Positions 31,125 through 51,585 are shown, counted from the first letter of the stretch. The stretch is 64,000 bases of DNA from an uncultured Actinomycetes bacterium (GCA_963821935.1 CAWGFM010000005.1:325222-389221), one strand, 5' to 3'. Made by a program: numbers and translations. The notes: generated by a model from the sequence alone, not told the origin.

Positions 31125-31133
31125 CGGCTCACA

Positions 31134-31189
31134 TTGACAGGGTTGACAGAGGTTAGCGAGTCTTGTTAATCGATGTCAACATCGTCAAC
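31134..31189. promoter_or_regulatory. Operator-like inverted pair of phased TTGAC(A) repeats in a divergent promoter region
   Basis: TTGACA at 31134 and 31143 (9-nt phase), mirrored by GTCAAC at 31175 and 31184 (9-nt phase). This is a locally AT-richer 179-nt gap between the ATPase gene and the DUF1353 operon. Confidence 0.35.
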
Positions 31190-31303
31190 GTGGGCTCCCA
31201 TCAGACTCTGTAGCTCGAACGACCGTCGGTCGAAGACACCTGCCTGACCGCTCCCGGGGGTGCAACCCTTCCACCAACGACGGCCCTGAAGGAGGCGATC
31301 CCA

Positions 31304-31903: not shown

Positions 31904-31913
31904 GAGGGCAGGC

Positions 31914-33467: not shown

Positions 33468-33532
33468 CGCGCCTACGCTTTGCCACCGGTCCTGCACGAC
33501 CGACGGGGGTCGGTCGATCTCGGCCCTGACCG

Positions 33533-34980: not shown

Positions 34981-37155
34981 TCAGTCCAGCAGCGCTGACT
35001 GCGCCCGCTGCGCGTCGATCAATCTCGCTGCGAGGGTGGTCGCCAGCCACCGGTGCAGGGCTGCAGCCGTCTCCGGCTCATCGGTCTCCAGTCGATCGAG
35101 CGATGCCCGGCTGAGCCCGAGCACCACGCTCTGCGTCTCGGCGATCACGTCGGCCGTCCGAGGCATGCCCGTGTACATCGCGATCTCGCCCACCACCACT
35201 CCCGGTCGGATCGTGCTCAGGCGGATCCGTGCTCCCTCCGGCGTGACGAGCTCGATCCGCAGTCGACCGGACTCCAGGATGAACATCGCATCGGGAGGGT
35301 CCCCGTGGTGGATCAGCACGGTGCCCTCCGCGATCGATGTGCGGTCGAGGTAGGTCCTCAGATGCGGTGGGAGCTCGGCCACGCCATCGCCCGCCGGTCC
35401 CCCGGCCTGGAACGCTTCCTCGAGGAGCCGGTCCTCGCACCACTGGAGACCGCGATCGAGGTCGGGCTCGAACCGCACGGCCCCGTCGGAGGCGATCACC
35501 TCTCCCCGGCGCAGCTGCTCCTGCACCTGATCGGACGCATCCACGAACACGAGCTCGAAACCGCTCGTCTCAGCGAGTTGGGCGACCTTGCGCAGGGCCA
35601 GCACCCCGGAAGCGTCCACGCCGGTGGCCCGCCGAAGATCCAGGATGAGGAACCGGATCGGTCCGGTTTCCACGCGCTTGCGGATCCGTTCGAGCAGTCC
35701 GCTCGCGGTGCCGAAGAACACGAACCCGTTCAGGCGCAGGATCTGGACACGATCGACCTGGCGCAGCAGCGCTTCACGCTCTGCGGGAGGTCGGTCGACG
35801 TTGCTTCGATATGTCGTGCCGAACGCGACCTCATGGATGAGATCGATCCGGCCGTAGTTCACGGCGAACACGACGACCGCCAGGACCAACCCAAGGACGA
35901 GGCCGACCAGCAGCCCTTTCGTGGCGATCGTCACCACGATGGCGAGGACGATGAGGTACTCGCCCACGGGCAGCGACTTCCGAACGTCGATGATCCACGC
36001 GACCAGGAACGACAGACCGACGAACACCAGCACGCCGGCGACGATCATCTTCGGGATCAACCCCACGAGCGTGGCGCCGAACACGATCACTCCGAGCGGA
36101 ACGAGCGCAGCGAGCAGGCCGGCCACTCGTCCATCGGCGGCCATCTGCTGTGCGAGCGCCGACAAGCTGAGGGCCTGGTAGCCGGGGAGTCCCCCGAAGA
36201 CACCTGAAGCGACGTTGACCAGACCCGCGGCTCGGAGCTGCTTGTTCGAGTCGAGATCGGTGCGGAGGAGCAGCTCGACGCCGCCCACGTTGAACAGACA
36301 TGCCATCACGGCGACGAGCACAGCGGTCGCGATCCCGGCCCCCTGATCGAGCACTGCCGACCAGTCCGCGAAGGTGATCGCGCGCATCGTCCATTGCTCC
36401 CAGAGCGGCTCCGTTGAGCCAGCGAACGGACCCAGCAGCCACAGACCGTCTCGTGCCTCTTGGATCGACGACCCAGTGACCAGCATCCCGCCCGCGAACA
36501 GCGCGAGTCCCAGAGCCATCATGGCCGGGATCACCAGCGGACGTCGCACGACCCGCGTCGCGACCACCAGCACGAGACCGAAGGCCAGGGCCGGAACCCA
36601 CCGGACCAGCTGGAAGGATTCCATGTACTCGTCGATCTTCGCCAACTCCAGATCGACGCCCGACGCCACCCGGAGCCCACCCTTCATGAGCAACCACCCG
36701 GTCCCGGCGAGGAAGCCCCCCACCACCGGGTAGGGGATGAATCTCGCGAGATTGCCCAACCGGAACGTCCCGAGCAGGAGGAAGGTCAGCGCGGTCAGGA
36801 GCGTGATGACCATGGTGGCCGCGACGACCGTATAGAAGGCCACGTAGATGCTGCCCTGTGTATCGAGGGCCGCATTCGCCGCGACGATCGTCAGGACCGC
36901 GGCAGCCGCGTCCTGGACGCTTCCCACGACACCTCGCCTGCCCGACCTCCAGGCGATGATCGCGAGCGAGACCGTGGCCGCGAACAGGTAGATGCCGATC
37001 CCGGCAGGCAGGAACTGCTCCAGATACCCGCCGAAGACCAGGGCCGCGAACGAGATCGCGAGGACGACCTCGACGATGCCGATGATGACCCCTGCGGAGA
37101 TGGTCGCCAGCAGTGCGCCGGTTCGCGATCGAACAGACACTGGCCCCCCCTCCAT
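34981..37155 (-). CDS. SulP-family anion transporter fused to STAS and cyclic-nucleotide-binding domains
   Basis: Multi-TM SulP core, a STAS domain (VQILRLNGFVFFGTASGL...FLILDLRRATGVDASGVLAL) and a CNB domain (EGTVLIHHGDPPDAMFILESGRLRIEL...GVVVGEIAMYTGMPRTADVIAE). ATG 37155 (preceded by GGAGGGG) is preferred; the track start 37263 overlaps the upstream gene. Confidence 0.85.
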   Translation of the reverse strand: MEGGPVSVRSRTGALLATISAGVIIGIVEVVLAISFAALVFGGYLEQFLPAGIGIYLFAATVSLAIIAWRSGRRGVVGSVQDAAAAVLTIVAANAALDTQGSIYVAFYTVVAATMVITLLTALTFLLLGTFRLGNLARFIPYPVVGGFLAGTGWLLMKGGLRVASGVDLELAKIDEYMESFQLVRWVPALAFGLVLVVATRVVRRPLVIPAMMALGLALFAGGMLVTGSSIQEARDGLWLLGPFAGSTEPLWEQWTMRAITFADWSAVLDQGAGIATAVLVAVMACLFNVGGVELLLRTDLDSNKQLRAAGLVNVASGVFGGLPGYQALSLSALAQQMAADGRVAGLLAALVPLGVIVFGATLVGLIPKMIVAGVLVFVGLSFLVAWIIDVRKSLPVGEYLIVLAIVVTIATKGLLVGLVLGLVLAVVVFAVNYGRIDLIHEVAFGTTYRSNVDRPPAEREALLRQVDRVQILRLNGFVFFGTASGLLERIRKRVETGPIRFLILDLRRATGVDASGVLALRKVAQLAETSGFELVFVDASDQVQEQLRRGEVIASDGAVRFEPDLDRGLQWCEDRLLEEAFQAGGPAGDGVAELPPHLRTYLDRTSIAEGTVLIHHGDPPDAMFILESGRLRIELVTPEGARIRLSTIRPGVVVGEIAMYTGMPRTADVIAETQSVVLGLSRASLDRLETDEPETAAALHRWLATTLAARLIDAQRAQSALLD

Positions 37156-37231
37156 GGCCCCCCTCCACGGCAACGACTGCTCGCCTGCGAACAGCACCCT
37201 ATGCGCCGACGCCGCTCGGCGCCAGAGCTCG

Positions 37232-38257
37232 TCAGCCGTCCCAGCGGACGGCGATCCGCTCATTGAGACCGGGCAGCGGCAAGGACTCGGCTTCCGCCTC
37301 GACGGCGGCGCGTGCCCCGCGTGACAATCGGCGCCAGGTCTGGACCGTCACCGTCCGTTGCGCACGTCGCCACGTCCCGACGAGCTCGCCATCGAGGAGG
37401 AGGCCGCCCGGCCACACGCGCGAGGTCCAGAGCTCACCGCGACGATCCGCGTCGGGGACCAGGAGCTCGCGATCGTGTCCTTGGAGGAGGAAGTACGCGT
37501 CGCCGCTCGGGAGGAATCGCGCCGGCGCCACCGCCCCCGGAGGGACCCGGAACGAAGGTTCGTCGCGCGCAAGGATCCATGCGTCGCCGATCGGTGTTCG
37601 CACCGCGGTGAGGGACCTGCGGAGCGCGTCGAACGCCTCGCTGCTTCGCCGACGTGGGACCCCCGACCACTGAGCGAACGCCTCGGGCGTGGTGGGCCCG
37701 AACACGTGCAGGTACCGTCGCGCGAGTTCCAGGCGAGCGTCGCGAGGCTCGACCTCGGGTGGGGGCGTGACCCAGACGGTGGGCAGTCGCGCACCGTCCC
37801 ATCGGAGCAGGACGGTGCCGGTCGGAGCCGCGTATCGGAGCATGTTGGGGTTCTCGCCGAGCGCCCTGCCCGCCTCGCCGTAGCTCATCCTCGCGTCGCC
37901 GAGGACGGCTGCCAGTCGGGAGGCGAGGCTCTCCGCCTTGTGGCGGGCACCGGCCTCGTCCGGCAGCCTCCCGAGCGAGAAGACGGCGAGGTCACGCTTC
38001 GCGACGACGTAGGCGTGGTGGCGCGGCCCCCAGAGCTGCACGAGCGAGGGGTCTTCCCAGGTCGTCGGTTCGGTTCCCTCGACGCGCGCATGGATCGACA
38101 GGAGCGCGGCTCGGGGCATGCTGTCCTGTAGGCCAGCCCATGCCGCACGCCGGAGCGAACGGCGTCCGCGCGGCAGCCGCTGATCCAGCGATCCGACGTG
38201 CCGCCGGAACGCGAGGATCTGCTCCCGCGTAAGGCTGAGTCGACCCCTCGTCACCAT
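37232..38257 (-). CDS. Winged-helix HTH_42 family protein (YcaQ/AlkZ-like DNA glycosylase paralog 1)
   Basis: Start trimmed to MVTRGRLSLTREQILAFRRHVGSLDQRL (ATG 38257). Contains GLQDSMPRAALLSIHARV...LVQLWGPRHHAYVV...RRYLHVFGPTTPEAFAQWSG, typical of the family. Confidence 0.7.
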   Translation of the reverse strand: MVTRGRLSLTREQILAFRRHVGSLDQRLPRGRRSLRRAAWAGLQDSMPRAALLSIHARVEGTEPTTWEDPSLVQLWGPRHHAYVVAKRDLAVFSLGRLPDEAGARHKAESLASRLAAVLGDARMSYGEAGRALGENPNMLRYAAPTGTVLLRWDGARLPTVWVTPPPEVEPRDARLELARRYLHVFGPTTPEAFAQWSGVPRRRSSEAFDALRRSLTAVRTPIGDAWILARDEPSFRVPPGAVAPARFLPSGDAYFLLQGHDRELLVPDADRRGELWTSRVWPGGLLLDGELVGTWRRAQRTVTVQTWRRLSRGARAAVEAEAESLPLPGLNERIAVRWDG

Positions 38258-41218: not shown

Positions 41219-41857
41219 ATGAACGCGAGGATCGCGCCCGCACGGTTGCACGAGCTCGGCTGGCGGATCGTGAGGGACGACGCAGCCGTCCATCTCCGAA
41301 CGGGATCGTTCGGCGACGGCGTGGCTCTGGCGGGCGACATCGGGACTATCGCCGAGGGGGCGCAGCGTGGCCCGCGGGTCGATCTCCGCCCGGACGGCGT
41401 CACCGTGCGCCTGCCGTCGGACCGCGAAGGACGATTCGGCGAGGATCAGATCGAGTTGGCGCGACGGATCTCCGCGGCGGCCGCAGCGCGTGGCGCGTCC
41501 GCGGATCCCGGCCACCTGCAGTCCGTGCAGATCGCGATCGACGCGCTCGTGATCCCGGACGTGCTGCCGTTCTGGCAGGCGGTGCTGGCCTACGACCAGG
41601 TAGGAGATGAAGACCTGGAGGACCCCCGCCACATGGGACCGCCGGTGTGGTTCCAGCAGATGGACGAGCGACGGCCGCAACGCAATCGGTTCCACGTCGA
41701 TGTGTACGTGCCTGCTGATCAGGCGGAGGCGCGCGTGGCGGCGGCGCTGGCCGCCGGCGGCCACATCGTCAACGACGAGCACGCCCCGGGCTGGTGGACC
41801 CTGGCCGACGCCGAAGGGAACGAGGTCGACGTCGCTGCCTGGCCCGACCTCGACTGA
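41219..41857 (+). CDS. Pterin-4a-carbinolamine dehydratase-like N-domain fused to a glyoxalase/VOC-like C-domain
   Basis: 212 aa. The N-terminal half is PCD-like (LHELGWRIV...FGDGVALAGDIGTIAE...), with no canonical HHP seen. The C-terminal half reads FWQAVLAY...PPVWFQQMDE...RFHVDVYVP...GWWTLADAEGNEVDV. Confidence 0.55.
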   Translation: MNARIAPARLHELGWRIVRDDAAVHLRTGSFGDGVALAGDIGTIAEGAQRGPRVDLRPDGVTVRLPSDREGRFGEDQIELARRISAAAAARGASADPGHLQSVQIAIDALVIPDVLPFWQAVLAYDQVGDEDLEDPRHMGPPVWFQQMDERRPQRNRFHVDVYVPADQAEARVAAALAAGGHIVNDEHAPGWWTLADAEGNEVDVAAWPDLD

Positions 41858-42134
41858 CGGAGCGGGTGCTCGGGAGGCCTCTCGACCGGCGGCTGCCAGT
41901 CTGCTCGAGCTCCGACTGGCCGAGCTATTGTCGCGCCATGGCGACCCGCATGCGGTCCTCCGGCGAGATCAGGTGGTCCTCGTCACGCGACGCTTCGTCC
42001 AGGTCGATCTGGACCCACGTGACCCGACCGGAGAAGGTGCTTCTCTTCCGGGGCCCGCATCCGCCGACGCCTCGACTAGCGCGCCCGGCGAGAGAGGCGT
42101 AGCATCGCGCGCAACCAACCTCCGGAGGTATCGG

Positions 42135-43508
42135 ATGCGCAGGCTACGAGCGGCCGCTTCGACAGCCCTGGCCCTCGCGACAGTGATCGCCGCCGTGGCC
42201 TTCGCAACGGGATCCCCGGCGACGGTAACCCTCCGTGAGAACCGTGCCCTCGAGCACGCCCCTCGCGGCAACGCCCCGATGCCGAAGGGGGCGATGAAGC
42301 CCATCTCGGCGACGGCGGTCGCCGCTGCGGCAGCCCCCGGCTGGGCGGGCGAGATCAAGCTCGGCGCCGAGGATACGTGGGAGCCGTCCACCGCTGCGGA
42401 CCCGAGCGGCCCATACGTCTACGCGATGTACAACGGGTTCAACCGGCCGAAGGCATGCAAGAACTGCCCACCCATCCCGATGCTCCTGCGGGTGTCGAGC
42501 GACAACGGCGCGACGTGGGGGCCGGAGACCTACCCCTGTCCGTGTCCGGGCGTGAAGCAGTTCCAGTACGACCCGGTGGTCAAGGTGGCGAACAACGGTG
42601 TCGTCTACGCGACGTGGATGAACAAGTACGAGATCGTCTTCTCGAAGTCGGCGAACCACGGAGCTTCCTGGACGGCGCCGATCAAGGTCTCGGGGAACCA
42701 GTGGGGCGACAAGCCGTGGATCGGGGTCAGCCCCGACGGCGTTCACGTCTACGTCGCGTACGCGACGGCACAGGACGTCTGGGTCGCGGCTTCGCACAAT
42801 TCGGGCGCGTCGTTCAGTGCCGCCGTCAAGCTCAACACCGACAGCGGCAACTACCGCTACCCGAACGGGCTGGAGGTGCTGTCGAGCGGCGCCGCGATCC
42901 TCTCGGCATCGATGTATCCCGGCAGCCAGCAGGGAAGCGGTGCGATCGCGATCGAGACGTGGAGGTCGACTAACGGCGGCGCTGCGTGGTCACGGTCCGT
43001 GCTCGCGAACGTGTTCACGGGGATCAACTTCGAGACGTCCTCGACGACGGCCCTCGCGAGCGACGCCGCCGGGACGATCGTGGCGCTGTACACGGGCGCG
43101 ACCACGGTCGGTGGGAACGGTCACGTCTGGACGCGTCGCTCAGCCGATGGGGGACTGACCTGGGCGCCCGCGATCGAGATCGGGAACGGTGTGGCCAACG
43201 CGTCGTTCCCCGCGATCGCGGGTGGTGCACCGGGCGATTTCCGACTGCACTACAGCGACAACCGGACCGGTTCGTGGAACGCGTGGTATCGCTCGTCGAC
43301 GACCGGAGGCCAGAGTTGGAGCGCGGAGACCGACATCTCCGACGCCGACACCGGCGCCTCGTACAAGACGGCGGCGGGGTTCGCGTCGGAGTACGGCGAC
43401 TACGGCGCGATCGACATCACGAACACCGGCAAGACCGTCGGGATCTGGGGCGAGGGCGCGAGCTTCTCGGCCGGGCCTGGAGGGATCTGGTTCAACCGGC
43501 AGACGTAG
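42135..43508 (+). CDS. Secreted BNR/Asp-box repeat (sialidase-fold beta-propeller) protein
   Basis: Start trimmed to ATG 42135 (RBS GGAGGT), with signal peptide MRRLRAAASTALALATVIAAVAFA. Six Asp-box motifs: SSDNGATW, SANHGASW, SHNSGASF, STNGGAAW, SADGGLTW, STTGGQSW. Confidence 0.8.
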   Translation: MRRLRAAASTALALATVIAAVAFATGSPATVTLRENRALEHAPRGNAPMPKGAMKPISATAVAAAAAPGWAGEIKLGAEDTWEPSTAADPSGPYVYAMYNGFNRPKACKNCPPIPMLLRVSSDNGATWGPETYPCPCPGVKQFQYDPVVKVANNGVVYATWMNKYEIVFSKSANHGASWTAPIKVSGNQWGDKPWIGVSPDGVHVYVAYATAQDVWVAASHNSGASFSAAVKLNTDSGNYRYPNGLEVLSSGAAILSASMYPGSQQGSGAIAIETWRSTNGGAAWSRSVLANVFTGINFETSSTTALASDAAGTIVALYTGATTVGGNGHVWTRRSADGGLTWAPAIEIGNGVANASFPAIAGGAPGDFRLHYSDNRTGSWNAWYRSSTTGGQSWSAETDISDADTGASYKTAAGFASEYGDYGAIDITNTGKTVGIWGEGASFSAGPGGIWFNRQT

Positions 43509-43624: not shown

Positions 43625-43770
43625 AGACGTCGGCAACACCGCCAACCGCCCCACGATCGCGAACGCGGCGTCCGCGGCCTTCTCGAGCAGAGTTCTGAGA
43701 TGTCGGAGCCTCAGTTCTGAGGAACACCCCCTCGGAATGTGGGAGGAGGAGGGTAGGTCGGCCCGTGCTG
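43625..43770. repeat. Distal copy (A) of the tRNA-Tyr flank repeat, including a decayed tRNA-Tyr 3'-end remnant
   Basis: 43674-43752 aligns with 51443-51516 (gcggccttctcgagcagagttctgagatgtcggagcctcagttctgaggaacacccc...gtgggaggaggagg versus ggcgccttcttcagcggagttctgagatgtcaggggcctcagttttgagaacacccc..gtgggaggaggagg). Weaker similarity extends about 50 nt further left. GGGAGGAGGAGG is the reverse complement of the tRNA-Tyr acceptor/T-stem 3' strand. Confidence 0.6.
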
Positions 43771-43903: not shown

Positions 43904-44368
43904 CTATCGCTCGAGTATCCCCGTGGGGTCGCCGATCTGCTCAGCCAGCCCGATCATGATGCCTTCAGGGCCGCGGATGTAGCAGAGCCGGTATATGTCC
44001 TCGTACCGCACGACCTCACCGACGAGTTCGGCGCCGTGGGCCTGCAGGCGGGCAAGGACGTCCTCGATGTCGTCGACGGCGAACATCACGCGAAGGTAAC
44101 CGAGCGAATTCACCGGGGCGGGTTCCGGAGTCCTGCGGATCACCGGCGGCGCGTGGAACTTGCTCAGCTCCAGCCGGCTGTGGCCATCCGGGGTCCGTAG
44201 CATCGCGATATCGCTCTTGGCGCCGTCGAGCCCGATGGTGCGATCCACCCACCGTCCCTCGACGGTCGTCTCGCCCTCCAGCTCCAAACCAAGTTCGAGG
44301 AAGAACTCGATAGCAGCCTTGAGGTCGTCGACCACGATGCCGACGTTGTCCATCCGCTGGACCGTCAT
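43904..44368 (-). CDS. VOC/glyoxalase-family protein
   Basis: Start trimmed to MTVQRMDNVGIVVDDLKAAIEFFLELGLELEG (ATG 44368); 154 aa; typical VOC beta-alpha-beta-beta-beta repeats. Confidence 0.85.
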   Translation of the reverse strand: MTVQRMDNVGIVVDDLKAAIEFFLELGLELEGETTVEGRWVDRTIGLDGAKSDIAMLRTPDGHSRLELSKFHAPPVIRRTPEPAPVNSLGYLRVMFAVDDIEDVLARLQAHGAELVGEVVRYEDIYRLCYIRGPEGIMIGLAEQIGDPTGILER

Positions 44369-44610
44369 GTCCTCAAGATACGGCCTGAAGGGAAGCGCGT
44401 GTCGCCACGCGAGGTCACCTGCGAGAAGGTGCAGGGAGTCGCGCAAGATAGGCCCCGCATCGCTCTCCATGCAACAATGCGCGGCGAGGGGTTCACTTGA
44501 GTTCACCTGAACACCCCATCCAGGCTCTGGCGGTCGCCGGGCCAACATGCTCTTGGCGGCCGAAGAGGCCGGAACGGATCACCGGAACATCCAACCTTCT
44601 GGAGGAACGG

Positions 44611-45159
44611 GTGAGCGATACGAGCACTGGAAGGGTGGTCGTGAACAGGTCGATGTCGCTGGACGGTTTCATCGCCGGTCCCGGCGACGCGATGGACTGG
44701 ATCTTCGACTTCGTGGCACCGGACGATGTCCAGGAGATCGCGGCGGCTACCGGCGCCATGCTCATCGGCCGGCGGACCCACGAGGTGGGTAAGAGGATGC
44801 AGGCCGACGAGCCAGGCAGCGGCGACTACCCCTTCTCCGGACCCTTCTTCGTCCTGACCCACGAGCCGCCGGACCCGCCGGATCCAGAGGTCACGTTCCT
44901 CAGCGGCGATATCGGGGAGGCGGTCGCCACGGCGCTGGACGCTGCGGGCGGGAAGAACCTGGAAATCCTCGGCGCCGACGTGGCGGGCCAGTGCCTGCGG
45001 CGGGGGCTCGTCGACGAGATCTTGGTGTATGTGATGCCGGTGCTGCTCGGCGACGGCATCCGCTTCTCCCCCCCGGGCCTCCCCAGGATCGACCTGGAAC
45101 CGGTCAGTAGCACGCGGTCGCGAGACGTCACCATCCTCCGATTCCACGTTCGCAAGTAG
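44611..45159 (+). CDS. Dihydrofolate reductase-family protein (RibD C-terminal domain)
   Basis: GTG 44611 preceded by GGAGGA. Contains VVVNRSMSLDGFIAGPGDAMDWIF...LIGRRTHE...LVDEILVYVMPVLLGDGIRFS. Confidence 0.85.
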   Translation: MSDTSTGRVVVNRSMSLDGFIAGPGDAMDWIFDFVAPDDVQEIAAATGAMLIGRRTHEVGKRMQADEPGSGDYPFSGPFFVLTHEPPDPPDPEVTFLSGDIGEAVATALDAAGGKNLEILGADVAGQCLRRGLVDEILVYVMPVLLGDGIRFSPPGLPRIDLEPVSSTRSRDVTILRFHVRK

Positions 45160-45203: not shown

Positions 45204-45250
45204 GGTTCTTGGTTGGTGGGTGTGGTGGTTGGCAGTGGGGTGTTCTCAGA
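45204..45250. repeat. GT-rich element ending in an inverted copy of the TGAGAACACCCC core (copy D)
   Basis: ggttcttggttggtgggtgtggtggttggcagtGGGGTGTTCTCAga. It is homologous to 46143-46193, and its core is the reverse complement of the motif in copies A, B and C. Confidence 0.55.
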
Positions 45251-45410
45251 CGTCCCACGGCGACCGCCGACGCCTCCCCCGATCGAGACATTACGAAGGC
45301 GTCCTGGACCAGGTCGGATTCGCTATGGTCTGCAATCTGTCTGTCCCCATGCAACCAATGTCCCGACTCTCGAAGGACAGCGTCATGACTGCTCAGTGCA
45401 GGAGGCGAGC

Positions 45411-46082
45411 GTGAGGCTTCTACTTACGTCCGCGGGCGTTAAGAACCCGAGCATCCGCGATGCGCTGGTCGACCTGCTGGGCAAGCCGATCGCCGACTCG
45501 AGCGCCCTGTGCATCCCCACCGCGGCGTACGGGCACCCACAGGTTGGTCCAGGAACGGGGCCCTGGCAGTTCATCAGTGGAAATTCCGACCTTCCTATGG
45601 TCAACCTGGGCTGGAAGTCCGTCGGTGTGCTAGAGCTCACCGCGCTGCCCAGTATCCATGAAGAGCGCTGGATGCCCATAGTCCAGGAGACGGATGTCCT
45701 GCTGGTGGCGGGCGGCGATGCCCTGTATCTGTGCCACTGGATGCGGGAGTCCGGGTTGGCGAACCTACTTCCGTCTCTGATCGAGACGGTCTGGGTCGGA
45801 CTGAGCGCCGGGAGCATGGTGATGACCCCCAAGATCGGGGAGGACTTCATCCAGTGGAGGCCGCCCACCGGTGACGACAGCACGTTGGGCATCGTTGACT
45901 TCTCGATCTGTCCACACCTGGCTCAGGAAGGCATGCCGGGCAACTCGATGGCCGAGGCGGAACAGTGGGCGGCTGGCATCTCGGGTCCGGCGTACGCGAT
46001 CGACGACGAGACCGCCATCAAGGTGGTCAACGGCACCGTCGAGGTCGTGTCAGAAGGGCACTGGAAGCACTTCCCCGCCTAG
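45411..46082 (+). CDS. Peptidase E-like / type 1 glutamine amidotransferase-like (S51) protein
   Basis: GTG 45411 preceded by GGAGG. Contains VRLLLTSAGVKNP...VLLVAGGDALYL...VWVGLSAGSMVM (the GxSAG nucleophile elbow). Confidence 0.8.
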   Translation: MRLLLTSAGVKNPSIRDALVDLLGKPIADSSALCIPTAAYGHPQVGPGTGPWQFISGNSDLPMVNLGWKSVGVLELTALPSIHEERWMPIVQETDVLLVAGGDALYLCHWMRESGLANLLPSLIETVWVGLSAGSMVMTPKIGEDFIQWRPPTGDDSTLGIVDFSICPHLAQEGMPGNSMAEAEQWAAGISGPAYAIDDETAIKVVNGTVEVVSEGHWKHFPA

Positions 46083-46429: not shown

Positions 46430-49400
46430 CTAGCGAGGAGGGCAGCGGTCGAGATGGAGGAACCGATCGCACTCCTCGTCGGTCAGCGAGCGTGTGACCC
46501 GCGCCCGTGCGACCGTCAGCAGCTCGTCTAGATCGAGGATCCACGTTCGGACCGTTCCGTCGAACGAAGAGGAGGCGAGGATCCTGCCATCCGGGCTGAA
46601 CTCGACGTATGCCACCTCGCCCGTGTGACCGCTGAGTGTGAGCAGGTTGTCGCCGGTGCGCCGATCCCACACTTTCACCAGCCCGTCCTCTCCACCGGTC
46701 GCGAGCAGTGATCCTTTGGCGTCGAATGCGACGGAGTTCACCGAGCCTCGGTGGGCAAACACCGAGAAGTCCCTTCTTCCCGAGAACATCCAGACGCGGA
46801 GCGTTCCGTCTCCCAGGCCGGCAGCGACCGATCGCCCGTCCGGGCTGATCTCCACGGAAGTCCCGAACGCGTCCGTGCTGCTCAGCTCCTCGACGATCTC
46901 GCCGGTCGACGTATCGTGAAGTCGGATACGCCCCGGCTCCTGCTCTGCCGTGGCGACGAAGAGGCCGTCCGGGGAGAGACTCGCGCCCGGGAACCACGTC
47001 GCCTCAGAACGAGCCAGGATCTGCAGTTCTTCACCCGACGTCGCATCCCAGAGCCGAACCGTTCCGTCGTCCAGGCCTGTCGTCACGACGCTCGTTCCAT
47101 CCGAGCTGATGTCCACGGTGCCAACCCAACCCCTATGCCCATCGAACCGAACCCGCTCTCGGCCGGTCGCCACGTCCCACATCGCGACGCCGAACCCGCC
47201 CGAAGCGGCGATTGTCGCGCCGTCCGGGCCGAAGTCGATACCGGTCACGAACGAGTCAGCCGGGAAGGTTCGGAGCCGATCACCAGTCGCCGTATCCCAC
47301 ACCGTGAACCCTTCGTAGTTGTTGGTCGCGACCATGGAACTATCCGGCGAGAAGGCCAGGGCGCCTCCTCCGCCCGGGAACGTCAGATGCTCCCCGCCTC
47401 TTTCTTTCGACACGTCCCATATCCTCCCGACTACGTTCGCATCTCCCGCCGCGAACCCGCCGTTGCCGGCAGCCAGGCGGTGGCCGTCGGGACTGAACGA
47501 CACGCAGCAGATCGTGGCTGCGTCGCTGGGGAGCACGAGGACCTCGCGTCCCCCGTCACGAGTTATCTCCCAAACGCGGGTCGCACCGTCGGCGCCGCCT
47601 CCCGCCACGAGCTGTCCCGTCGGGCTGAACTCGAGGTCGACGATCTCGGAGGGAGGAAACAATGAGAAGAGATGATCGCCGGTTCGAGCGTTCCATACGT
47701 CGACAGTGTCGCCGCTCGTGAGGACGACCCGGTCGTCTGGGCTCCACGCGACGTCCCAGCCGAAGCCCCCGTGACCTGCCCACACGAGGCGCTCCGACCG
47801 AACGTCGAAGACCTTTACCGGTGTATTCACATCACGTGTGACCACGGCGAGCTCATCGCCATCTGGGCCCCAGGCCAGACCACCGGGCTCATAGCCACTG
47901 TTGACCTCCAACGAGGCGAGGAGACGTCCCGATACGACGTCCCATACGCGGGCTACCCCATCGAGACCGGTCGCGGCGACCCGGTCGCCGTCCGGGCTGA
48001 ACTCGAGCCAGCCGGCAGCCTTTGCGGACCGGATCGTTCGTACCGTGCCGCCATCCTCCGGGTCCCAGATCGTCAGCACGCCATCGAAGGCGACGGTCCC
48101 AACGGCATCGCCCTTCGGACTCCAGTCGACGTCCCACAAGGCGACGTCCCCCAACGGTCCTTCGCGTCCGTGCAGAATCGCGAGTGTCTCGCCCGTCTCG
48201 GCGTCGAGGATCACCGCGTCCCCAGACTCGCCGCTCTCCGAGTATGGGTGCGCGACGAGCCGCTGGCCATCCGGGCTGTAGTCGAAGCTGTTCATCCGCG
48301 GGATCGACGCCACCACCCGTTGGGCCACGACCGCCTCGTGTAAGGCCTCTTCCGCGTCACGAACGACGATGCCCTCGGACGAGCGGGTCGCTTCGACGGC
48401 CTCGATCGCGAGGAGCAGGCTTCGCTCCGGATCCACACCGAGGTTGGCACGGGCTGCGCTCGCGAGCTCGCGAGCGATCGCGACCTGCTCTCCCTGTTCG
48501 GCTCGCCCACGCTGATCGGTGGCGAACACGGTGAGTGCACCCGCCACCAGAGCGGCGACCGCCAGCACGGCCACGAAGGCACGGAGGCGTCGAACGGACC
48601 TACGCTCCAGGGCCGATTCACGCGCTCTTCGAAACTCCTCGTCCTTCCGCTGCCGGTCCCGCTCCACGACCGAGGCGCCGAGGAATTCGAGCTCCTCGGG
48701 CGTGAGTGCGAGACCGGACCCCGCCCGCCACGCCTCGGCCTGCTCAAGTCGCGAGCCCGCCAGCAAGAAGGACGCATCTCGGTCGGCCCCGATCCAATCG
48801 TGTGCTGCGGCGGCCACGCGGCGCTCGGTCCGGACCTCGTCGCGGGCGGTATCGATCCATCGGCGAAGACGAGGCCAGGCCGTGAGCAACGCCTCGTGCG
48901 CCAGTTCGATCGTGGGGGCGCCGTTCCGGGCGTCCCGGTCGAAGGAAAGCTGGCGAGAGGCGCCGAACGTGTCGATGACGGTCGCCATGGCCTGCGGGTC
49001 CACTTCGAGCGAGGCGACCTCCGTTCGCGGCACGCGGCGTCTGGTGTCCTCGGCTCCCTCTCCGAGCGTCACGAGTCGCAGGAAGAGCTGACGGGCGGCC
49101 TCCTTGCCGCCCTGATCGAGCTCGTCGAACAGCTCCTCGGCTCGTCGTCCGAGCGCCCCCGAGACCCCGCCGATATCACGGTATGCCTCGCGCGTGAGCA
49201 CCTTTCCCTCTCGCCGGTCGAACAGCTCGGTGAGCGCGTACTGGAGCAGTGGCAGCGCACCCGGCTCGTCGGCCAGGTCCCGCACCATCTCGGCGAGCAG
49301 GCCTTGCTCGAGCCCGACGTCGACCGCTTTCGCCGGACCGACGATCGCCCGTTCCAGCTCCTCAGGTGACAGCGGCACCAACGCCTCCACATACGACCTG

Positions 49401-50602
49401 AGCAGATCGGCGAACCCCCGGTACATGAGAGGGCGGTCGTAGAAGTCCGCGCGGAGCGTGGTCACGACGTGAACCTGGCTCCGCGGGTCGGTCACGGCGT
49501 GATGGACCGCCGACAGGAACTGCACACGTCGTTCCTCGTCTCGTTCGAGCGTGAACACCTCTTCCAATTGATCGATCACCAACAGGAGCTCCGAGTCGTC
49601 CGCCGGCAACACACGCTTCACGACGCGGAGCAGACCTCGTTCGTCTTGTTCCAACTGCTCGATCAGGCTGGCGGGTGGATTCACCGCGATCCGGAGCAGC
49701 GACGCCTCGAGCTCTTCCAACGGATGGGCGCCGGGGATCATCTCGGCGATCAACCAACGTTCCGAGCCCGGGAGTGCGCCGCTGCGGATCGCCGGGACGA
49801 GCCCGGCTCGCACGACCGATGACTTGCCGGAACCACTGGGGCCGACGACGGCGAGGAACCGCGCCTCACCCGCTCGCGACACGAGCTCCTGCGTGAGCGC
49901 CTCACGCCCGAAGAAGAAGGCGGCATCCGCCTCCTCGAACGCGCGCAGACCCTTGTAAGGGTTGCGCATCTCCAGAGCTCCGGCGTGCGGGGTCGCGACG
50001 GCTCCCAGGGCTCGAAGGTAGGCGAGATCCTGCGAAGGATCGGAGCCTTCGGGAGCGAGCCGGATCACGGGGACGGGGTCAGCGAACCCCTTGAGACGTG
50101 CGGTGCCGCGTTCGATGTACGAGACACCGTCCACCCGCCGCGCGAGGTGAACCACCTCCCGGGTCGCAAGGGTCTCCGCCGCCCCGGCCATCGAGCAGAG
50201 CCTTGCTGCGAGGTTGATCGCACCGCCCCGGTACCCGTCCTCGAGGGGAACGACCTCGCCGGCATCGAGACCGATCCCCACACCCAGCGGAAGGGCGGGG
50301 TCGGCAATGGTCTGCTCGGCGAAGCGCGCCTGGAGCTCGAGCGCCGCTCGGATGGCCTCTCGCGGAGAGGTGAACACGGCGAGGGCCTCGTCGCCCCGAA
50401 GCTGGATCCCTGTACCACCACGCGCCTCGAGTGCCGGGATCGCGATCCGCGCGAACCTGTCGGCGAGCCGGGCACCCGCCTCGTCACCGTGGTCTTGCAT
50501 GAAGGCGGTGTATCCGCGGATGTCGGCGATTAGGAACGTGCGGACGTGGGCGTTATCGGTGCCCGCGTCGGTAAGACCCGCATGCGGACCCTCGCCGACC
50601 AT
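46430..50602 (-). CDS. Class III adenylate/guanylate cyclase domain - STAND P-loop NTPase - TM helix - 14x WD40 repeat protein
   Basis: 1390 aa. Cyclase motifs FLIADIRGYT (D27), RGDEALAVF (D71) and GGAINLAARL (N130/R134). Walker A GPSGSGKS (aa 254-261) and Walker B-like LLLVIDQLEEVF. Hydrophobic helix LRAFVAVLAVAALVAGALTVFA (aa ~674-694). Then 14 SPDG...WD-type blades. Confidence 0.9.
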   Translation of the reverse strand: MVGEGPHAGLTDAGTDNAHVRTFLIADIRGYTAFMQDHGDEAGARLADRFARIAIPALEARGGTGIQLRGDEALAVFTSPREAIRAALELQARFAEQTIADPALPLGVGIGLDAGEVVPLEDGYRGGAINLAARLCSMAGAAETLATREVVHLARRVDGVSYIERGTARLKGFADPVPVIRLAPEGSDPSQDLAYLRALGAVATPHAGALEMRNPYKGLRAFEEADAAFFFGREALTQELVSRAGEARFLAVVGPSGSGKSSVVRAGLVPAIRSGALPGSERWLIAEMIPGAHPLEELEASLLRIAVNPPASLIEQLEQDERGLLRVVKRVLPADDSELLLVIDQLEEVFTLERDEERRVQFLSAVHHAVTDPRSQVHVVTTLRADFYDRPLMYRGFADLLRSYVEALVPLSPEELERAIVGPAKAVDVGLEQGLLAEMVRDLADEPGALPLLQYALTELFDRREGKVLTREAYRDIGGVSGALGRRAEELFDELDQGGKEAARQLFLRLVTLGEGAEDTRRRVPRTEVASLEVDPQAMATVIDTFGASRQLSFDRDARNGAPTIELAHEALLTAWPRLRRWIDTARDEVRTERRVAAAAHDWIGADRDASFLLAGSRLEQAEAWRAGSGLALTPEELEFLGASVVERDRQRKDEEFRRARESALERRSVRRLRAFVAVLAVAALVAGALTVFATDQRGRAEQGEQVAIARELASAARANLGVDPERSLLLAIEAVEATRSSEGIVVRDAEEALHEAVVAQRVVASIPRMNSFDYSPDGQRLVAHPYSESGESGDAVILDAETGETLAILHGREGPLGDVALWDVDWSPKGDAVGTVAFDGVLTIWDPEDGGTVRTIRSAKAAGWLEFSPDGDRVAATGLDGVARVWDVVSGRLLASLEVNSGYEPGGLAWGPDGDELAVVTRDVNTPVKVFDVRSERLVWAGHGGFGWDVAWSPDDRVVLTSGDTVDVWNARTGDHLFSLFPPSEIVDLEFSPTGQLVAGGGADGATRVWEITRDGGREVLVLPSDAATICCVSFSPDGHRLAAGNGGFAAGDANVVGRIWDVSKERGGEHLTFPGGGGALAFSPDSSMVATNNYEGFTVWDTATGDRLRTFPADSFVTGIDFGPDGATIAASGGFGVAMWDVATGRERVRFDGHRGWVGTVDISSDGTSVVTTGLDDGTVRLWDATSGEELQILARSEATWFPGASLSPDGLFVATAEQEPGRIRLHDTSTGEIVEELSSTDAFGTSVEISPDGRSVAAGLGDGTLRVWMFSGRRDFSVFAHRGSVNSVAFDAKGSLLATGGEDGLVKVWDRRTGDNLLTLSGHTGEVAYVEFSPDGRILASSSFDGTVRTWILDLDELLTVARARVTRSLTDEECDRFLHLDRCPPR

Positions 50603-50849: not shown

Positions 50850-51248
50850 CTATCGCTGCTGCGCTCCTGATTGGTGATCCATCAGGTAGTCCGCCCAGGG
50901 ACTCCCCGAGTCGGGATCAGGGCTGGCCTGGAACCGGCGGTTCTTGCCCGTCTTGCTCTCGCTGAACTCCACGCTCGGAACGAACCACGCGGTCTGGATC
51001 CGGGCATCGTACTGGTCGACCACCAAGAACAGCAGATACAGATCGGGGCGCGGACGGAACGTGCCCGGATTGAGGAGGGCCTTCGCGCCCCTGCGTTCGA
51101 TCTTCTCCGGGGCGTCGAAGAAGTGGGACTTCACTTGGACGGAAAGCGTGGGTCGTCCGGCCGACCGGTAGAAGACGAGGTCGACCCCTTCGTCATCGAC
51201 CAGGGAGGTGGCGACGTTCAACTCGCCATCGCTGCCCAGGACGCACAT
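50850..51248 (-). CDS. PD-(D/E)xK nuclease-fold hypothetical protein (DUF4365-like), possibly N-terminally disrupted
   Basis: 132-aa ORF with DDEGVDLVFY...TLSVQVKS (a D...(E/Q)xK-type arrangement). The in-frame upstream sequence (EKWRGIAAESLVAS) looks like part of the same domain but has no ATG/GTG/TTG start. An ATG at 51342 is in another frame. Confidence 0.5.
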   Translation of the reverse strand: MCVLGSDGELNVATSLVDDEGVDLVFYRSAGRPTLSVQVKSHFFDAPEKIERRGAKALLNPGTFRPRPDLYLLFLVVDQYDARIQTAWFVPSVEFSESKTGKNRRFQASPDPDSGSPWADYLMDHQSGAQQR

Positions 51249-51387: not shown

Positions 51388-51503
51388 CCACATCGACAGC
51401 CGAACCACCGCACCCGGCCCTCGATCGCGGGAAGCGAGCACCGGCGCCTTCTTCAGCGGAGTTCTGAGATGTCAGGGGCCTCAGTTTTGAGAACACCCCG
51501 GAG
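51388..51503. repeat. Proximal copy (B) of the flank repeat, immediately 3' of tRNA-Tyr
   Basis: See copy A. The similarity continues into the tRNA 3' end (51504-51516). Confidence 0.6.
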
Positions 51504-51585
51504 TGGGAGGAGGAGGATTCGAACCTCCGTAGGCTGAGCCGGCGACTTTACAGGCCGCTCCCTTTGGCCACTCGGGCATCCTCCC
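51504..51585 (-). tRNA. tyrT: tRNA-Tyr (GTA anticodon), class II with a long variable arm
   Basis: Manual cloverleaf: GGGAGGA/TCCTCCC acceptor, GCGGC-CTGTAAA-GTCGC anticodon arm, GGCT..AGCC variable arm, GGAGG-TTCGAAT-CCTCC T-arm, discriminator A. CCA is not encoded. Confidence 0.9.

What the first reader, a model, noticed from the sequence alone, without database searches (positions are those of the whole stretch)
46430..50602. Cyclase - STAND NTPase - TM - double WD40 propeller protein: candidate second-messenger-producing sensor (conflict or signalling system)
Seen: the N-terminal domain has the class III nucleotidyl cyclase residues in the correct order (D27 in FLIADIRGYT, D71 in RGDEALAVF, N130/R134 in GGAINLAARL). 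A P-loop NTPase follows (GPSGSGKS; hhhhDQLEE Walker B) with a long helical arm. A single hydrophobic helix (aa ~674-694) has the basic cluster RRSVRRLR on its N-terminal side. Then come 14 WD40-type blades, which fit two 7-bladed propellers, and a Cys-containing tail (DEECDRFLHLDRC). Established: cyclase-ATPase fusions exist in Actinobacteria (the M. tuberculosis Rv0386 type). STAND NTPases with WD40 or TPR sensors and N-terminal effector domains are recurrent in prokaryotic immunity and programmed-death systems. cNMP and oligonucleotide signals drive several antiphage systems. Inference: sensing by the propellers, which may be extracytoplasmic given the TM helix and the positive-inside rule, would switch the NTPase and activate the cyclase. 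This gene is the main cargo of a tRNA-linked island next to a nuclease-fold gene. That location fits a defence or conflict role better than housekeeping signalling. The specific combination cyclase + STAND + TM + WD40 is not one I can assign to a described system.
Basis: partly seen in the sequence, partly recalled or inferred. Interest (0 to 1): 0.7.

Follow-up and report, generated by a model that had tools for sequence, protein, structure and literature searches.

The report
Membrane-spanning STAND receptor with cyclase output
This gene most likely encodes a single-pass membrane receptor: two WD40 propellers outside the cell, and an NLR-type (STAND) ATPase switch plus a cyclic-nucleotide cyclase inside; it belongs to a large, uncharacterised family of soil bacterial receptors and is not an obvious anti-phage system.

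Summary
Window 46430-50602 (-) is one intact 1390-aa ORF with these parts:
- a class III cyclase domain, aa 20-187;
- an nSTAND1 NTPase, aa 215-610, Pfam E=7e-120;
- one hydrophobic helix, aa 675-695;
- 14 WD40 blades;
- a conserved two-Cys tail.

More than 100 full-length homologs exist in Actinomycetota metagenomes. The nSTAND1-helix-WD40-Cys chassis also occurs in Chloroflexota, where the N-terminal module is a Ser/Thr kinase, SARP or LuxR domain instead of the cyclase. No nuclease, protease or TIR was seen in that position.

The same cyclase subfamily also heads simpler proteins of the form cyclase-TM-propeller-SBP_bac_5 (an extracellular solute-binding domain). This supports a topology with the N-terminus inside and the C-terminus outside.

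The family's substrate-specifying pair is Glu/Gly, the guanylate-cyclase type found in Cya2. The focal protein has Gln/Gly.

The sensor half evolves as a swappable cassette. One homolog is 91-93% identical in the cyclase and NTPase but only 31% identical in the propellers.

The gene is the main cargo of a 7.75-kb island. The island is bounded by tRNA-Tyr and a 118-nt partial repeat of the tRNA's 3' end and flank, and it carries no integrase.

No conserved partner gene or defence context was found. Best reading: a transmembrane STAND-switched receptor cyclase. Topology, catalysis and ligand are all untested.

The parts
46430..50602 (-). Whole CDS, 1390 aa (stop codon 46430-46432)
   Evidence: GC3 0.79
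50042..50545 (-). Class III nucleotidyl cyclase homology domain, aa 20-187 (D27, Q67, D71, G109, G123, N130, R134)
48773..49960 (-). nSTAND1 STAND NTPase module, aa 215-610
   Evidence: Pfam PF20703, E=7.4e-120
49820..49843 (-). Walker A GPSGSGKS, aa 254-261
   Evidence: invariant in alignments A1 and A4
49559..49585 (-). Walker B LLVIDQLEE, aa 340-348
   Evidence: D344, Q345, E347 and E348 invariant
48581..48700 (-). Charged juxtamembrane helix, aa 635-674, ending in the basic cluster RRSVRRLR
   Evidence: AF2 predicts one continuous helix over aa 635-699
48518..48580 (-). Predicted transmembrane helix AFVAVLAVAALVAGALTVFAT, aa 675-695
48317..48517 (-). Post-membrane three-helix stalk, aa 696-762
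   Evidence: AF2 helices; identity to P0002 breaks down at about aa 740-760
46535..48316 (-). 14 WD40 blades, aa 763-1356, consistent with two 7-bladed propellers
46433..46534 (-). C-terminal helical tail with the conserved Cys pair C1378/C1387 (LTDEECDRFLHLDRC)
51503..51585 (-). tRNA-Tyr (GTA); its 3' end is one boundary of the island
43637..43752 (-). Partial direct repeat of the last ~14 nt of tRNA-Tyr plus ~100 nt of its 3' flank (att-like distal boundary of the island)
   Evidence: blastn 78.8% identity over 118 nt, E=4e-17; alignment A5
50850..51248 (-). DUF4365-like small ORF (132 aa; homologs are about 170 aa), island cargo
45213..46082 (+). Peptidase_S51 gene, island cargo
44497..45159 (+). 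RibD_C-family reductase gene, island cargo
43904..44548 (-). Glyoxalase/VOC-family gene, island cargo

Best explanation
The protein is a single-pass transmembrane receptor.

Topology: the N-terminal half (class III cyclase plus nSTAND1 NTPase) is cytoplasmic. One helix (aa 675-695) crosses the membrane. A helical stalk, two WD40 propellers and a probably disulfide-bonded tail lie outside the cell.

Inferred mechanism:
1. An extracellular ligand, unknown and different between homologs, binds or clusters the propellers.
2. The signal passes along the long continuous juxtamembrane/TM helix.
3. The STAND NTPase exchanges nucleotide and oligomerises.
4. Oligomerisation brings the N-terminal cyclase domains into the dimer that class III cyclases need, and a cyclic nucleotide is made. 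From the specificity residues this could be cGMP and/or cAMP.
5. cNMP-binding proteins elsewhere in the genome read the signal.

The biological role is accessory sensing of the environment or of cell-surface contacts, carried here on a small tRNA-Tyr island.

Shown: domain identities, conservation, the recurrent chassis, the exchange of N-terminal modules and sensor cassettes, and the island boundaries. Inferred: membrane insertion and topology, catalytic activity and product, activation by oligomerisation, and the ligand.
For: Domains: nSTAND1 at 401 bits. The cyclase profile hits Ma1120 at E=1.6e-20 and Cya2 at 1e-10. The modelled domain superposes on Ma1120 with TM 0.90. D27, D71, N130 and R134 are kept in 117-119 of 120 homologs.

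TM helix:
- 191 chassis proteins have an uncharged run of 19-26 residues. K/R count in the flanking 15 residues is 5.8 on the N side and 3.5 on the C side.
- A summed insertion free energy (Hessa-type scale, values from memory) is -1.18 kcal/mol. It is negative in 94% of 198 homologs.
- AF2 predicts one continuous helix over aa 635-699, which continues as a helix to about aa 719 in the second model.

C-terminus outside:
- The same cyclase subfamily heads ~1050-aa proteins of the form cyclase-TM-propeller-SBP_bac_5, and SBP_bac_5 is an extracellular solute-binding domain.
- The C-terminal part has an even number of Cys in 174 of 191 proteins. The NTPase part is almost Cys-free.
- The Cys pair is conserved across two phyla.

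Signalling role:
- N-terminal modules on the same chassis are cyclase, SARP+cyclase, SARP+BTAD+kinase, kinase, and kinase+LuxR.
- Neighbourhoods of homologs hold other cyclases, a cNMP_binding-DUF294 gene, histidine kinases and GAF-SpoIIE/STAS genes.

Sensor behaviour: median identity to the focal protein is 72% in nSTAND1 and 34% in WD40. There is a sharp cassette boundary against P0002 at about aa 740-760.

Precedents:
- A surface WD40-class propeller sensor in Actinomycetota, EsrA (PMC13622651).
- Non-immune STAND regulators such as AfsR (abstract).
Against: - No experiment exists on any member of the family.
- No dedicated topology predictor was available. Classical STANDs are autoinhibited by direct contact between sensor and NTPase, which cannot happen across a membrane.
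- The post-helix stalk plus propellers resemble the Apaf-1 HD2-WD40 unit (TM-score 0.61), and Apaf-1 is cytosolic.
- PF00400-type WD40 repeats are mostly known from cytosolic proteins.
- The focal sequence scores below the Pfam cyclase threshold.
- The phosphate-binding Arg is Gly109 and the K/D pair is Q/G, so activity and product are uncertain.
- No cNMP receiver is linked. The nearest one, a SulP-STAS-cNMP_binding gene at 34981-37263, lies outside the island.
Confidence: 0.55

Rival explanations
1. It is a surface threat sensor. The wiring is the same as in the best explanation, but the ligand comes from a biological antagonist (phage particle, epibiont, predator or competitor), and the cNMP/kinase/SARP outputs switch on a defensive programme.
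For: - The propellers diverge fast and are swapped as cassettes, as expected in an arms race.
- The gene rides on an island in a hotspot whose content differs between close relatives.
- nSTAND1 was defined in predicted counter-invader systems (PMC8195603).
- cNMP cyclases are recurrent in predicted conflict systems (PMC7159879).
- An extracellular WD40-class propeller senses epibionts in Actinomycetota (PMC13622651).
- Several paralogs occur per genome.
Against: - No defence genes or effectors are conserved nearby.
- Variable sensors are also normal in ordinary chemoreceptor and kinase families.
- No ligand is known.
Confidence: 0.2
2. It is a cytoplasmic or membrane-tethered NLR-like anti-phage sensor (Avs- or Pycsar-like). 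The propellers would recognise a phage protein inside the cell, and the cyclase would make a signal that triggers abortive infection.
For: - Tripartite STAND layout: effector, NTPase, repeats.
- Domain-level PADLOC PycC hits, best E=1.5e-8.
- Apaf-1-like propeller unit.
- Island location next to a DUF4365-like ORF.
Against: - The conserved TM helix with a basic N-flank places the propellers on the other side of the membrane.
- Even Cys counts and the SBP_bac_5 relatives point the same way.
- No cNMP-binding effector lies next to the gene here or in eight homolog loci.
- Alternative N-terminal modules are kinases and DNA-binding domains, not nucleases, proteases or TIR.
Confidence: 0.1
3. The cyclase-like domain is catalytically dead. 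It would serve only as a nucleotide-binding or dimerisation module, with the real output going through protein-protein contacts.
For: - Sub-threshold Pfam score.
- The Arg of the RIGIH motif is Gly109 in 119 of 120 homologs.
- The Lys/Asp specificity pair is absent.
- Inactive cyclase domains have been noted in predicted conflict systems (PMC7159879).
Against: - Both metal-binding Asp residues and the Asn/Arg transition-state pair are almost invariant across 120 homologs at only ~66% domain identity.
- The E/G pair is the one found in the active guanylate cyclase Cya2, and it is the Ma1120 mutant pair with the best guanylate-cyclase activity (PMC4215837).
Confidence: 0.15

Closest known systems
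M. tuberculosis Rv0386-type cyclases (class III cyclase - AAA_16/MalT-type STAND - TPR - LuxR)
   Same: Both have an N-terminal class III cyclase fused to a STAND NTPase and a repeat sensor in an actinobacterium. Genes of this type sit at or near the same tRNA-Tyr hotspot in relatives L086, L113 and L169. From memory, unverified here: Rv0386 also has Gln at the Lys position.
   Different: The NTPase belongs to a different clade (nSTAND1, 401 bits). The repeats are WD40 rather than TPR. There is no HTH domain. A transmembrane helix lies between the NTPase and the sensor, so the sensor is predicted to be outside the cell.
nSTAND1 STAND NTPases of predicted counter-invader systems (Kaur et al. 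2021, PMC8195603)
   Same: The NTPase module matches the family model end to end (profile positions 1-378 of 379).
   Different: The described examples carry death-like adaptor domains or EADs and effectors such as TIR, caspase or trypsin. This protein has a cyclase, a TM helix and extracytoplasmic WD40 propellers, with no adaptor domain and no partner gene.
Cya2 guanylate cyclase of Synechocystis and the Ma1120 KDA->EGY mutant (PDB 2w01, 5d0g/5d0h)
   Same: These are the closest solved cyclase domains. The family's Glu67/Gly123 pair equals the E-G pair of Cya2 (PMC4215837).
   Different: The focal protein has Gln67. The third position is Ala133, not Tyr. The phosphate-binding Arg is Gly109. 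The domain context is entirely different.
Apaf-1 (PDB 3sfz)
   Same: Both are STAND NTPases followed by a helical unit and a double WD40 propeller. Apaf-1 gives the best query TM-score, 0.61. In both, output is thought to work by induced proximity.
   Different: Apaf-1 is cytosolic, carries a CARD effector, senses cytochrome c by direct clamping, and has no membrane helix.
Single-pass receptor kinases and cyclases (eukaryotic receptor guanylate cyclases; mycobacterial PknD with its extracellular beta-propeller)
   Same: The logic is the same: an extracellular sensor, one TM helix, and a cytoplasmic catalytic output activated by dimerisation. This comparison rests on established knowledge and was not tested here.
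   Different: Orientation is reversed, with the catalytic domain at the N-terminus. A STAND NTPase is inserted between the membrane and the output.
Pycsar (PycC cyclase plus cNMP-activated effector)
   Same: Both use a class III-like cyclase domain; PADLOC gives weak PycC hits.
   Different: No adjacent effector with a cNMP-binding domain is present. The specificity residues are of the purine-cyclase type. The protein is a large receptor, not a stand-alone cyclase.

Membership tests
Class III nucleotidyl cyclase (PF00211) | Sequence and fold homology to the cyclase homology domain | tested here: met
   phmmer against the PDB gives E=6e-12. The family profile gives E=1.6e-20. Foldseek gives TM-score 0.90 and rmsd 1.5 A to Ma1120.
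Class III nucleotidyl cyclase (PF00211) | Score at or above the Pfam gathering score (21.9 bits) | tested here: not met
   The focal protein scores 14.9-16.0 bits. Some homologs pass: L002 at 24.0 bits and P0327 at 25.7 bits.
Class III nucleotidyl cyclase (PF00211) | Two metal-binding Asp residues and the Asn/Arg transition-state pair | tested here: met
   D27 is kept in 117, D71 in 118, N130 in 118 and R134 in 119 of 120 homologs.
Class III nucleotidyl cyclase (PF00211) | Substrate-specifying pair: Lys/Asp for adenylate cyclases, or Glu plus Cys/Ser/Thr/His/Ala/Gly for guanylate cyclases | tested here: inconclusive
   The focal protein has Gln67/Gly123. The family has Glu67 in 116 of 120 and Gly123 in 118 of 120, which is the guanylate-cyclase type found in Cya2. 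The product was not measured.
Class III nucleotidyl cyclase (PF00211) | Active as a dimer, with catalytic sites at the interface | not testable with these tools
   Needs biochemistry or multimer modelling.
nSTAND1 STAND NTPase (PF20703) | Full-length match above the gathering score, with intact Walker A and Walker B | tested here: met
   401.5 bits against a threshold of 27.1, covering profile positions 1-378 of 379. GPSGSGKS and DQLEE are invariant.
STAND tripartite architecture (effector - NTPase - repeat sensor) | N-terminal output domain and C-terminal superstructure-forming repeats | tested here: met
Rv0386-type cyclase-ATPase-TPR-LuxR | AAA_16/MalT-type NTPase, a TPR sensor and a C-terminal LuxR HTH | tested here: not met
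   The best NTPase model is nSTAND1. The repeats are WD40. No TPR or GerE hit was found.
Pycsar | Adjacent effector gene with a cNMP-binding domain (TM or TIR type) | tested here: not met
   The island cargo consists of VOC, RibD_C, S51 and DUF4365-like genes. None of the 8 homolog loci has a TM- or TIR-type effector next to the gene; L083 has a cNMP_binding-DUF294 gene about 450 nt downstream.
EACC1 two-gene membrane-associated conflict system (Kaur et al. 2020) | A 5' gene encoding the EACC1 single-TM protein upstream of the caspase- or cyclase-headed gene | tested here: not met
   The upstream ORF (50850-51248) has no hydrophobic helix and no Pfam hit. Upstream genes in L081, L083 and L084 are unrelated. 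System description read.
Antiviral STAND (Avs / bacterial NLR-like defence) | Defence-type effector (nuclease, protease, TIR, etc.) and/or defence-island context, with a cytosolic sensor | tested here: not met
   Outputs are cyclase, kinase, SARP or LuxR. No PADLOC system-level hits among neighbours. The sensor is predicted to be extracytoplasmic. A phage phenotype was not tested.
tRNA-integrated genomic island | Direct repeat of the tRNA 3' end at the distal boundary | tested here: met
   43637-43752 matches the tRNA-Tyr 3' end plus flank, E=4e-17.
tRNA-integrated genomic island | Integrase or other mobility gene inside the island | tested here: not met
   All five island ORFs were scanned and none is an integrase.

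The most novel reading that the evidence does not exclude
The nSTAND1-TM-WD40 chassis would be a large, undescribed class of transmembrane NLR/STAND receptors. An Apaf-1-like double propeller would be displayed on the cell surface and a cytoplasmic STAND switch would drive interchangeable outputs. Its cyclase-headed branch (Glu/Gly specificity pair; about 1,100 clusters at 50% identity for the cyclase subfamily, which also heads architectures without a STAND) would be a sizeable family of bacterial receptor guanylate cyclases. Its propeller cassettes would be shuffled between paralogs to retarget the receptors.
Probability: 0.4. Interest if true: 0.8.

Novelty: new variant of a known kind. Interest (0 to 1): 0.62.

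Why it matters
STAND/NLR proteins are regarded as intracellular surveillance switches. A family whose repeat sensor lies across the membrane from the NTPase would extend that paradigm to cell-surface sensing. It would also raise a concrete mechanistic question: how is a STAND activated without direct autoinhibitory contact between sensor and NTPase?

Bacterial guanylate cyclases are rare. A receptor family with the Cya2-type Glu/Gly pair would make cGMP signalling in soil Actinomycetota directly testable.

The modular exchange of outputs (cyclase, kinase, SARP, LuxR) and of propeller cassettes gives natural chimeras for dissecting signal transmission and for engineering sensors.

If the ligands prove to be biotic, this would be a new kind of surface-based threat sensing.

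Tried and rejected
- att repeat. A 23-nt tRNA-Tyr 3'-end pattern with up to 3 mismatches found no second copy, and I first concluded there was no att repeat. That was wrong. A general repeat scan and blastn later found the 118-nt partial copy, which keeps only the last ~14 nt of the tRNA.
- The PDB sequence search with the nSTAND1 region gave only P-loop-level ABC-transporter hits. The top 50 Foldseek hits for the N-terminal model were all cyclases, so the structural neighbours of the NTPase remain undetermined.
- Rfam, promoter/terminator and tandem-repeat scans around the gene found nothing. In particular, there is no DNA-level blade homogenisation.
- EACC1 system, Pycsar and Avs membership were considered and rejected on their defining features.
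- YajQ (a c-di-GMP-binding family), which lies next to tRNA-Tyr, was considered as a partner. It was rejected because it is syntenic in relatives that lack the gene.
- The DUF2652 cyclase-like family paper (PMC4886424) is unrelated.
- tRNA or tmRNA proximity of homologs is not general. In L084 the homolog lies just outside a tRNA-Arg island. Most loci have no tRNA within 10 kb.

Full report
1. What is there.

Window 46430..50602 on the minus strand is one uninterrupted 1390-codon ORF with an ATG start. Its GC3 is 0.79. Most flanking genes fall between 0.83 and 0.95, although the aminotransferase ORF is 0.78.

Pfam places a full-length nSTAND1 STAND NTPase at aa 215-610 (E=7.4e-120). It also gives many WD40/beta-propeller models over roughly aa 800-1360.

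The N-terminal 190 residues score only 14.9-16 bits on PF00211, below the gathering score of 21.9. They are still clearly a class III cyclase domain:
- phmmer against the PDB hits 3mr7, Ma1120 and Rv1900c at E=1e-10 to 1e-12.
- A 16-sequence family profile hits Ma1120 at 1.6e-20 and the guanylate cyclase Cya2 at 1e-10.
- The AF2 model of this domain superposes on Ma1120 with TM-score 0.90 and rmsd 1.5 A.

- Walker A GPSGSGKS, aa 254-261.
- Walker B LLVIDQLEE, aa 340-348.
- The basic cluster RRSVRRLR followed by the apolar helix AFVAVLAVAALVAGALTVFAT, aa 675-695.
- The tail DEECDRFLHLDRC.

The AF2 model of aa 696-1390 (14-sequence alignment, pLDDT 85, pTM 0.80) shows three helices, then 56 beta-strands (14 four-stranded blades), then two short helices. 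The best Foldseek E-value is the 14-repeat Nostoc WD40 protein 2ymu (1e-40). The best query TM-score is Apaf-1 (0.61).

2. It is a family, and the chassis is wider than the cyclase.

A search of 5.8 billion proteins returned more than 100 homologs of 1377-1431 aa covering 97-100% of the query at 46-61% identity. Almost all come from metagenomic Actinomycetota. Pipelines name them only by domain, for example 'WD40 repeat protein/class 3 adenylate cyclase' or 'adenylate/guanylate cyclase domain-containing protein'.

A scan of one genome per species found at least 587 loci encoding relatives of the NTPase-to-C-terminus part. The 80 best are from MAGs of Actinomycetota and Chloroflexota (Anaerolineae and others), often with several paralogs per genome.

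In the 79 ORFs from that scan that are not truncated by a contig end:
- A hydrophobic helix sits about 401-443 residues after Walker A, with a Kyte-Doolittle mean of 2.1-3.2 over 19 residues. It is usually preceded by an Arg/Lys cluster.
- Most of the ORFs that reach their C-terminus end in a two-Cys tail. It reads LTDEECRQYLHxxxCP in Actinomycetota and LTCxEREQYRIEPLCE in Chloroflexota.

What changes is the N-terminal module. Observed variants are cyclase; SARP (Trans_reg_C+BTAD)+cyclase; SARP+BTAD+Ser/Thr kinase; kinase alone; kinase+LuxR; and one protein with cyclase+SARP+BTAD+kinase. No nuclease, protease, TIR or other 'death' effector was seen among these relatives.

3. The cyclase domain.

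Across 120 homologs the two metal-binding Asp residues (D27, D71) and the transition-state pair (N130, R134) are kept in 117-119 sequences.

The position of the adenine-specifying Lys is Glu in 116 of 120 homologs. It is Gln in the focal protein and in its closest relative P0002. The position of the specifying Asp is Gly in 118 of 120.

Adenylate cyclases use K/D. Guanylate cyclases use Glu plus a variable second residue. The bacterial guanylate cyclase Cya2 has exactly E-G, and the K101E/D157G mutant of Ma1120 had the best guanylate-cyclase activity (PMC4215837). The best PDB matches are in fact the Ma1120 'KDA to EGY' mutant and Cya2. The third position (Tyr in Cya2) is Ala133 here.

One departure argues for caution. 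The Arg of the RIGIH strand aligns with Gly109, which is Gly in 119 of 120 homologs. An invariant Arg125 in the family-specific YRGG motif might compensate; that is inference only.

So the domain is very probably a working nucleotide cyclase under strong purifying selection. Its product (cGMP, cAMP or both) is open, particularly for the Gln67 variant.

4. Topology.

No dedicated predictor was available, so the case is comparative.

(a) In 191 chassis proteins the helix is an uncharged run of 19-26 residues (median 21). The flanking 15 residues hold 5.8 K/R on the N side and 3.5 on the C side.

(b) A position-independent sum on a Hessa-type insertion scale, with values taken from memory, gives -1.18 kcal/mol. 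This is the only negative 21-residue window in the protein. The best window in that region is below zero in 94% of 198 homologs.

(c) AF2 draws a single continuous helix from aa 635 to 699, and in the second model the chain continues as a helix to about aa 719. This looks like a juxtamembrane-TM-stalk rod rather than a packed helical bundle.

(d) The NTPase part is almost free of Cys (0.06%). The C-terminal part has an even number of Cys in 174 of 191 proteins, and exactly the conserved pair in 136. That pattern is expected for disulfide-bonded exported domains of Actinomycetota; this last point rests on established knowledge and was not tested here.

(e) This is the strongest point. A profile of this cyclase subfamily finds 1,098 clusters (50% identity) at E<=1e-30. 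Glu occupies the Lys position in 140 of the 148 best hits read. A prevalent ~1036-1069-aa class has the same cyclase, then a TM helix at about aa 190-240, then a beta-propeller and an SBP_bac_5 domain. SBP_bac_5 is a family of extracellular solute-binding proteins.

The cyclase and the NTPase need cytoplasmic nucleotides. N-in/C-out with extracytoplasmic propellers is therefore the coherent reading.

The main reservation is conceptual. Known STANDs are held off by direct sensor-NTPase contact, and the stalk-plus-propeller unit resembles the cytosolic Apaf-1.

5. Mosaic evolution of the sensor.

Median identity of 119 homologs to the focal protein, by region:
- cyclase, 66%;
- nSTAND1, 72%;
- post-membrane stalk, 56%;
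- WD40 region, 34%.

P0002 is 93% identical in the cyclase and 91% in nSTAND1, but 31% in WD40. A 40-residue sliding window drops from 65% at aa 701-760, through 47% (aa 741-780), to 25-30% beyond about aa 760, and recovers to 55% in the last blades and tail.

Conversely, the best matches to the focal propellers (55-62%) belong to proteins P0005 and P0025, whose precomputed Pfam domains include a Ser/Thr kinase and BTAD. Their nSTAND1 is only 58-60% identical.

The ectodomain is therefore exchanged as a cassette between receptors with different outputs. No DNA-level repeat homogenisation is visible inside the gene.

6. Genomic setting.

The gene lies in an island. Window 43637-43752 is a partial direct repeat (118 nt aligned, 78.8% identity, E=4e-17) of the last ~14 nt of tRNA-Tyr (51503-51585, minus strand) plus ~100 nt of its 3' flank.

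The 7.75 kb between the two copies carries five genes:
- a DUF4365-like small ORF, 132 aa here, with an in-frame stop where its 170-aa homologs continue;
- the focal gene, which takes up 54% of the island;
- a Peptidase_S51 gene;
- a RibD_C-family gene;
- a glyoxalase/VOC gene.

There is no integrase.

On the other side of the tRNA, the genes for YajQ, an aminotransferase, a decarboxylase, an M48 peptidase and a NADH-dehydrogenase subunit are syntenic with metagenomic relatives at 76-88% amino-acid identity. The 9.85 kb beyond tRNA-Tyr in the closest relative, L086, shares no detectable protein similarity with the window.

L086 and L115 also carry a second copy of the same flank, 2.2 kb and 1.25 kb from the tRNA. 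This is therefore a recurrent integration hotspot.

In L086, L113 and L169 the hotspot or the DUF4365-like ORF is accompanied by a different cyclase-STAND-TPR gene of the Rv0386 kind.

Island residence is not universal. In L084 the homolog lies just outside a tRNA-Arg island, and most homolog loci have no tRNA nearby.

7. Partners and context of homologs.

Eight long-contig loci show no conserved neighbour. Six of them contain further class III cyclase genes within 8-10 kb: lipase-cyclase arrays, Ad_Cy_reg-cyclase and cyclase-AAA_16-TPR. Also present are a cNMP_binding-DUF294 gene, histidine kinases, GAF-SpoIIE and STAS proteins, and a MerR/B12-binding regulator. The other two, L081 and L082, are near-identical lipid-catabolism loci.

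PADLOC finds nothing beyond domain-level similarity, either for the protein (PycC 1.5e-8) or among ten window neighbours. The exceptions are a generic methyltransferase hit and the cNMP-binding domain of a SulP-STAS-cNMP_binding transporter at 34981-37263. That transporter is a possible receiver, but it lies outside the island.

The EACC1 two-gene system has cyclase- or caspase-headed proteins with STAND and TM variants. It requires an upstream EACC1 gene that is absent here.

8. Interpretation.

The best-supported model is a self-contained, single-pass receptor. Extracytoplasmic propellers capture or are clustered by a ligand. The rod-like helix transmits this across the membrane. nSTAND1 exchanges nucleotide and oligomerises. 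The N-terminal cyclase domains are then brought into the obligate dimer.

All outputs found on this chassis are modules generally held to act as dimers or through proximity: cyclase, Ser/Thr kinase, and SARP or LuxR DNA-binding domains. That fits an oligomerisation switch. This step is inference.

The output repertoire and the neighbourhoods argue for signal transduction rather than abortive-infection defence. Fast-evolving, shuffled sensors and island carriage keep open a role in sensing biological antagonists at the cell surface. EsrA, an extracellular WD40-class propeller in Actinomycetota, is a recent precedent (PMC13622651).

9. Novelty.

Full-text searches for nSTAND1, for STAND+WD40+cyclase+transmembrane, for SARP+WD40+NB-ARC, and for STAND NTPase+transmembrane+extracellular+WD40 found no description of this architecture. 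The papers that define nSTAND1 and survey bacterial STANDs do not mention a membrane helix between NTPase and sensor in the passages read.

The components are known and databases annotate the family by domain. It is therefore a new variant of known kinds (STAND-coupled cyclase; receptor cyclase), not a new category. Everything about its function rests on inference.

Noticed in passing
window 34981-37263 (-): A 760-aa SulP-family transporter with STAS and a C-terminal cNMP-binding domain (Pfam E=2e-20). It is a possible reader of cyclic nucleotides, lying about 9 kb from the focal gene but outside the att-bounded island.
   Followed up: partly
window 50850-51248 (-): Small ORF of a conserved actinobacterial family whose members are about 170 aa; one homolog is named DUF4365 by UniRef, and the ORF has a D...QVK motif. 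The window copy has an in-frame stop upstream, so it is about 38 aa shorter at the N-terminus or is a pseudogene. Close homologs (80-93% identity) sit in other variable regions, next to RHS/YD-shell fragments and a transposase in L171.
   Followed up: partly
L086 4310-6787 (-); L113 4782-7958 (-); L169 11439-14522 (+): In three relatives, the tRNA-Tyr hotspot or the DUF4365-like ORF is accompanied by a different cyclase-STAND-TPR gene (825-1058 aa, Rv0386-like). Different cyclase-STAND fusions thus recur at the same locus.
   Followed up: partly
P0259, P0261, P0295, P0327; L084 20821-23955 (-): A prevalent ~1050-aa receptor class with the same Glu-type cyclase subfamily: cyclase, then a TM helix at about aa 190-240, then a beta-propeller (Vgb_lyase/YNCE-like), then an SBP_bac_5 extracellular solute-binding domain.
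   Followed up: partly
P0291 (1907 aa), P0311 (1648 aa): Multi-output chassis variants. P0291 is cyclase+SARP+BTAD+Ser/Thr kinase+nSTAND1+TM+WD40. P0311 is cyclase+an AAA_16 fragment+nSTAND1+TM+WD40.
   Followed up: no
L084 14991-15051 and 19388-19463: A 61-nt repeat (90% identity) of the tRNA-Arg 3' end bounds a 4.3-kb island. The focal homolog and a Pterin_4a/Glyoxalase_6 gene lie just outside it. A similar Pterin_4a/Glyoxalase_6 gene (42% identity) is at window 41219-41857.
   Followed up: partly
window 29952-34975: Between tRNA-Thr and the AlkZ-like gene lies a run of accessory-looking genes: a 390-aa AAA_16 ATPase, DUF1353, an animal-haem-peroxidase-like protein and a nitroreductase-like protein. 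None of them was matched by tblastn in the relative L170, which carries a DUF192-family ORF next to its tRNA-Thr, as the window does.
   Followed up: no
window 41607-43508 (+): A BNR/sialidase-like protein. The listed ORF overlaps the preceding gene, so the real start is probably at the signal-peptide-like MRRLRAAASTALALATVIAAVAFATG, about 175 codons in.
   Followed up: no
L165 and L166 (about 6996-14027): In two related MAG contigs the homolog is flanked on the same strand by a MerR/B12-binding (light-regulator-like) gene upstream and a CBM96-Metallophos gene downstream, with gaps of about 65-100 nt. This may be a lineage-specific operon.
   Followed up: no
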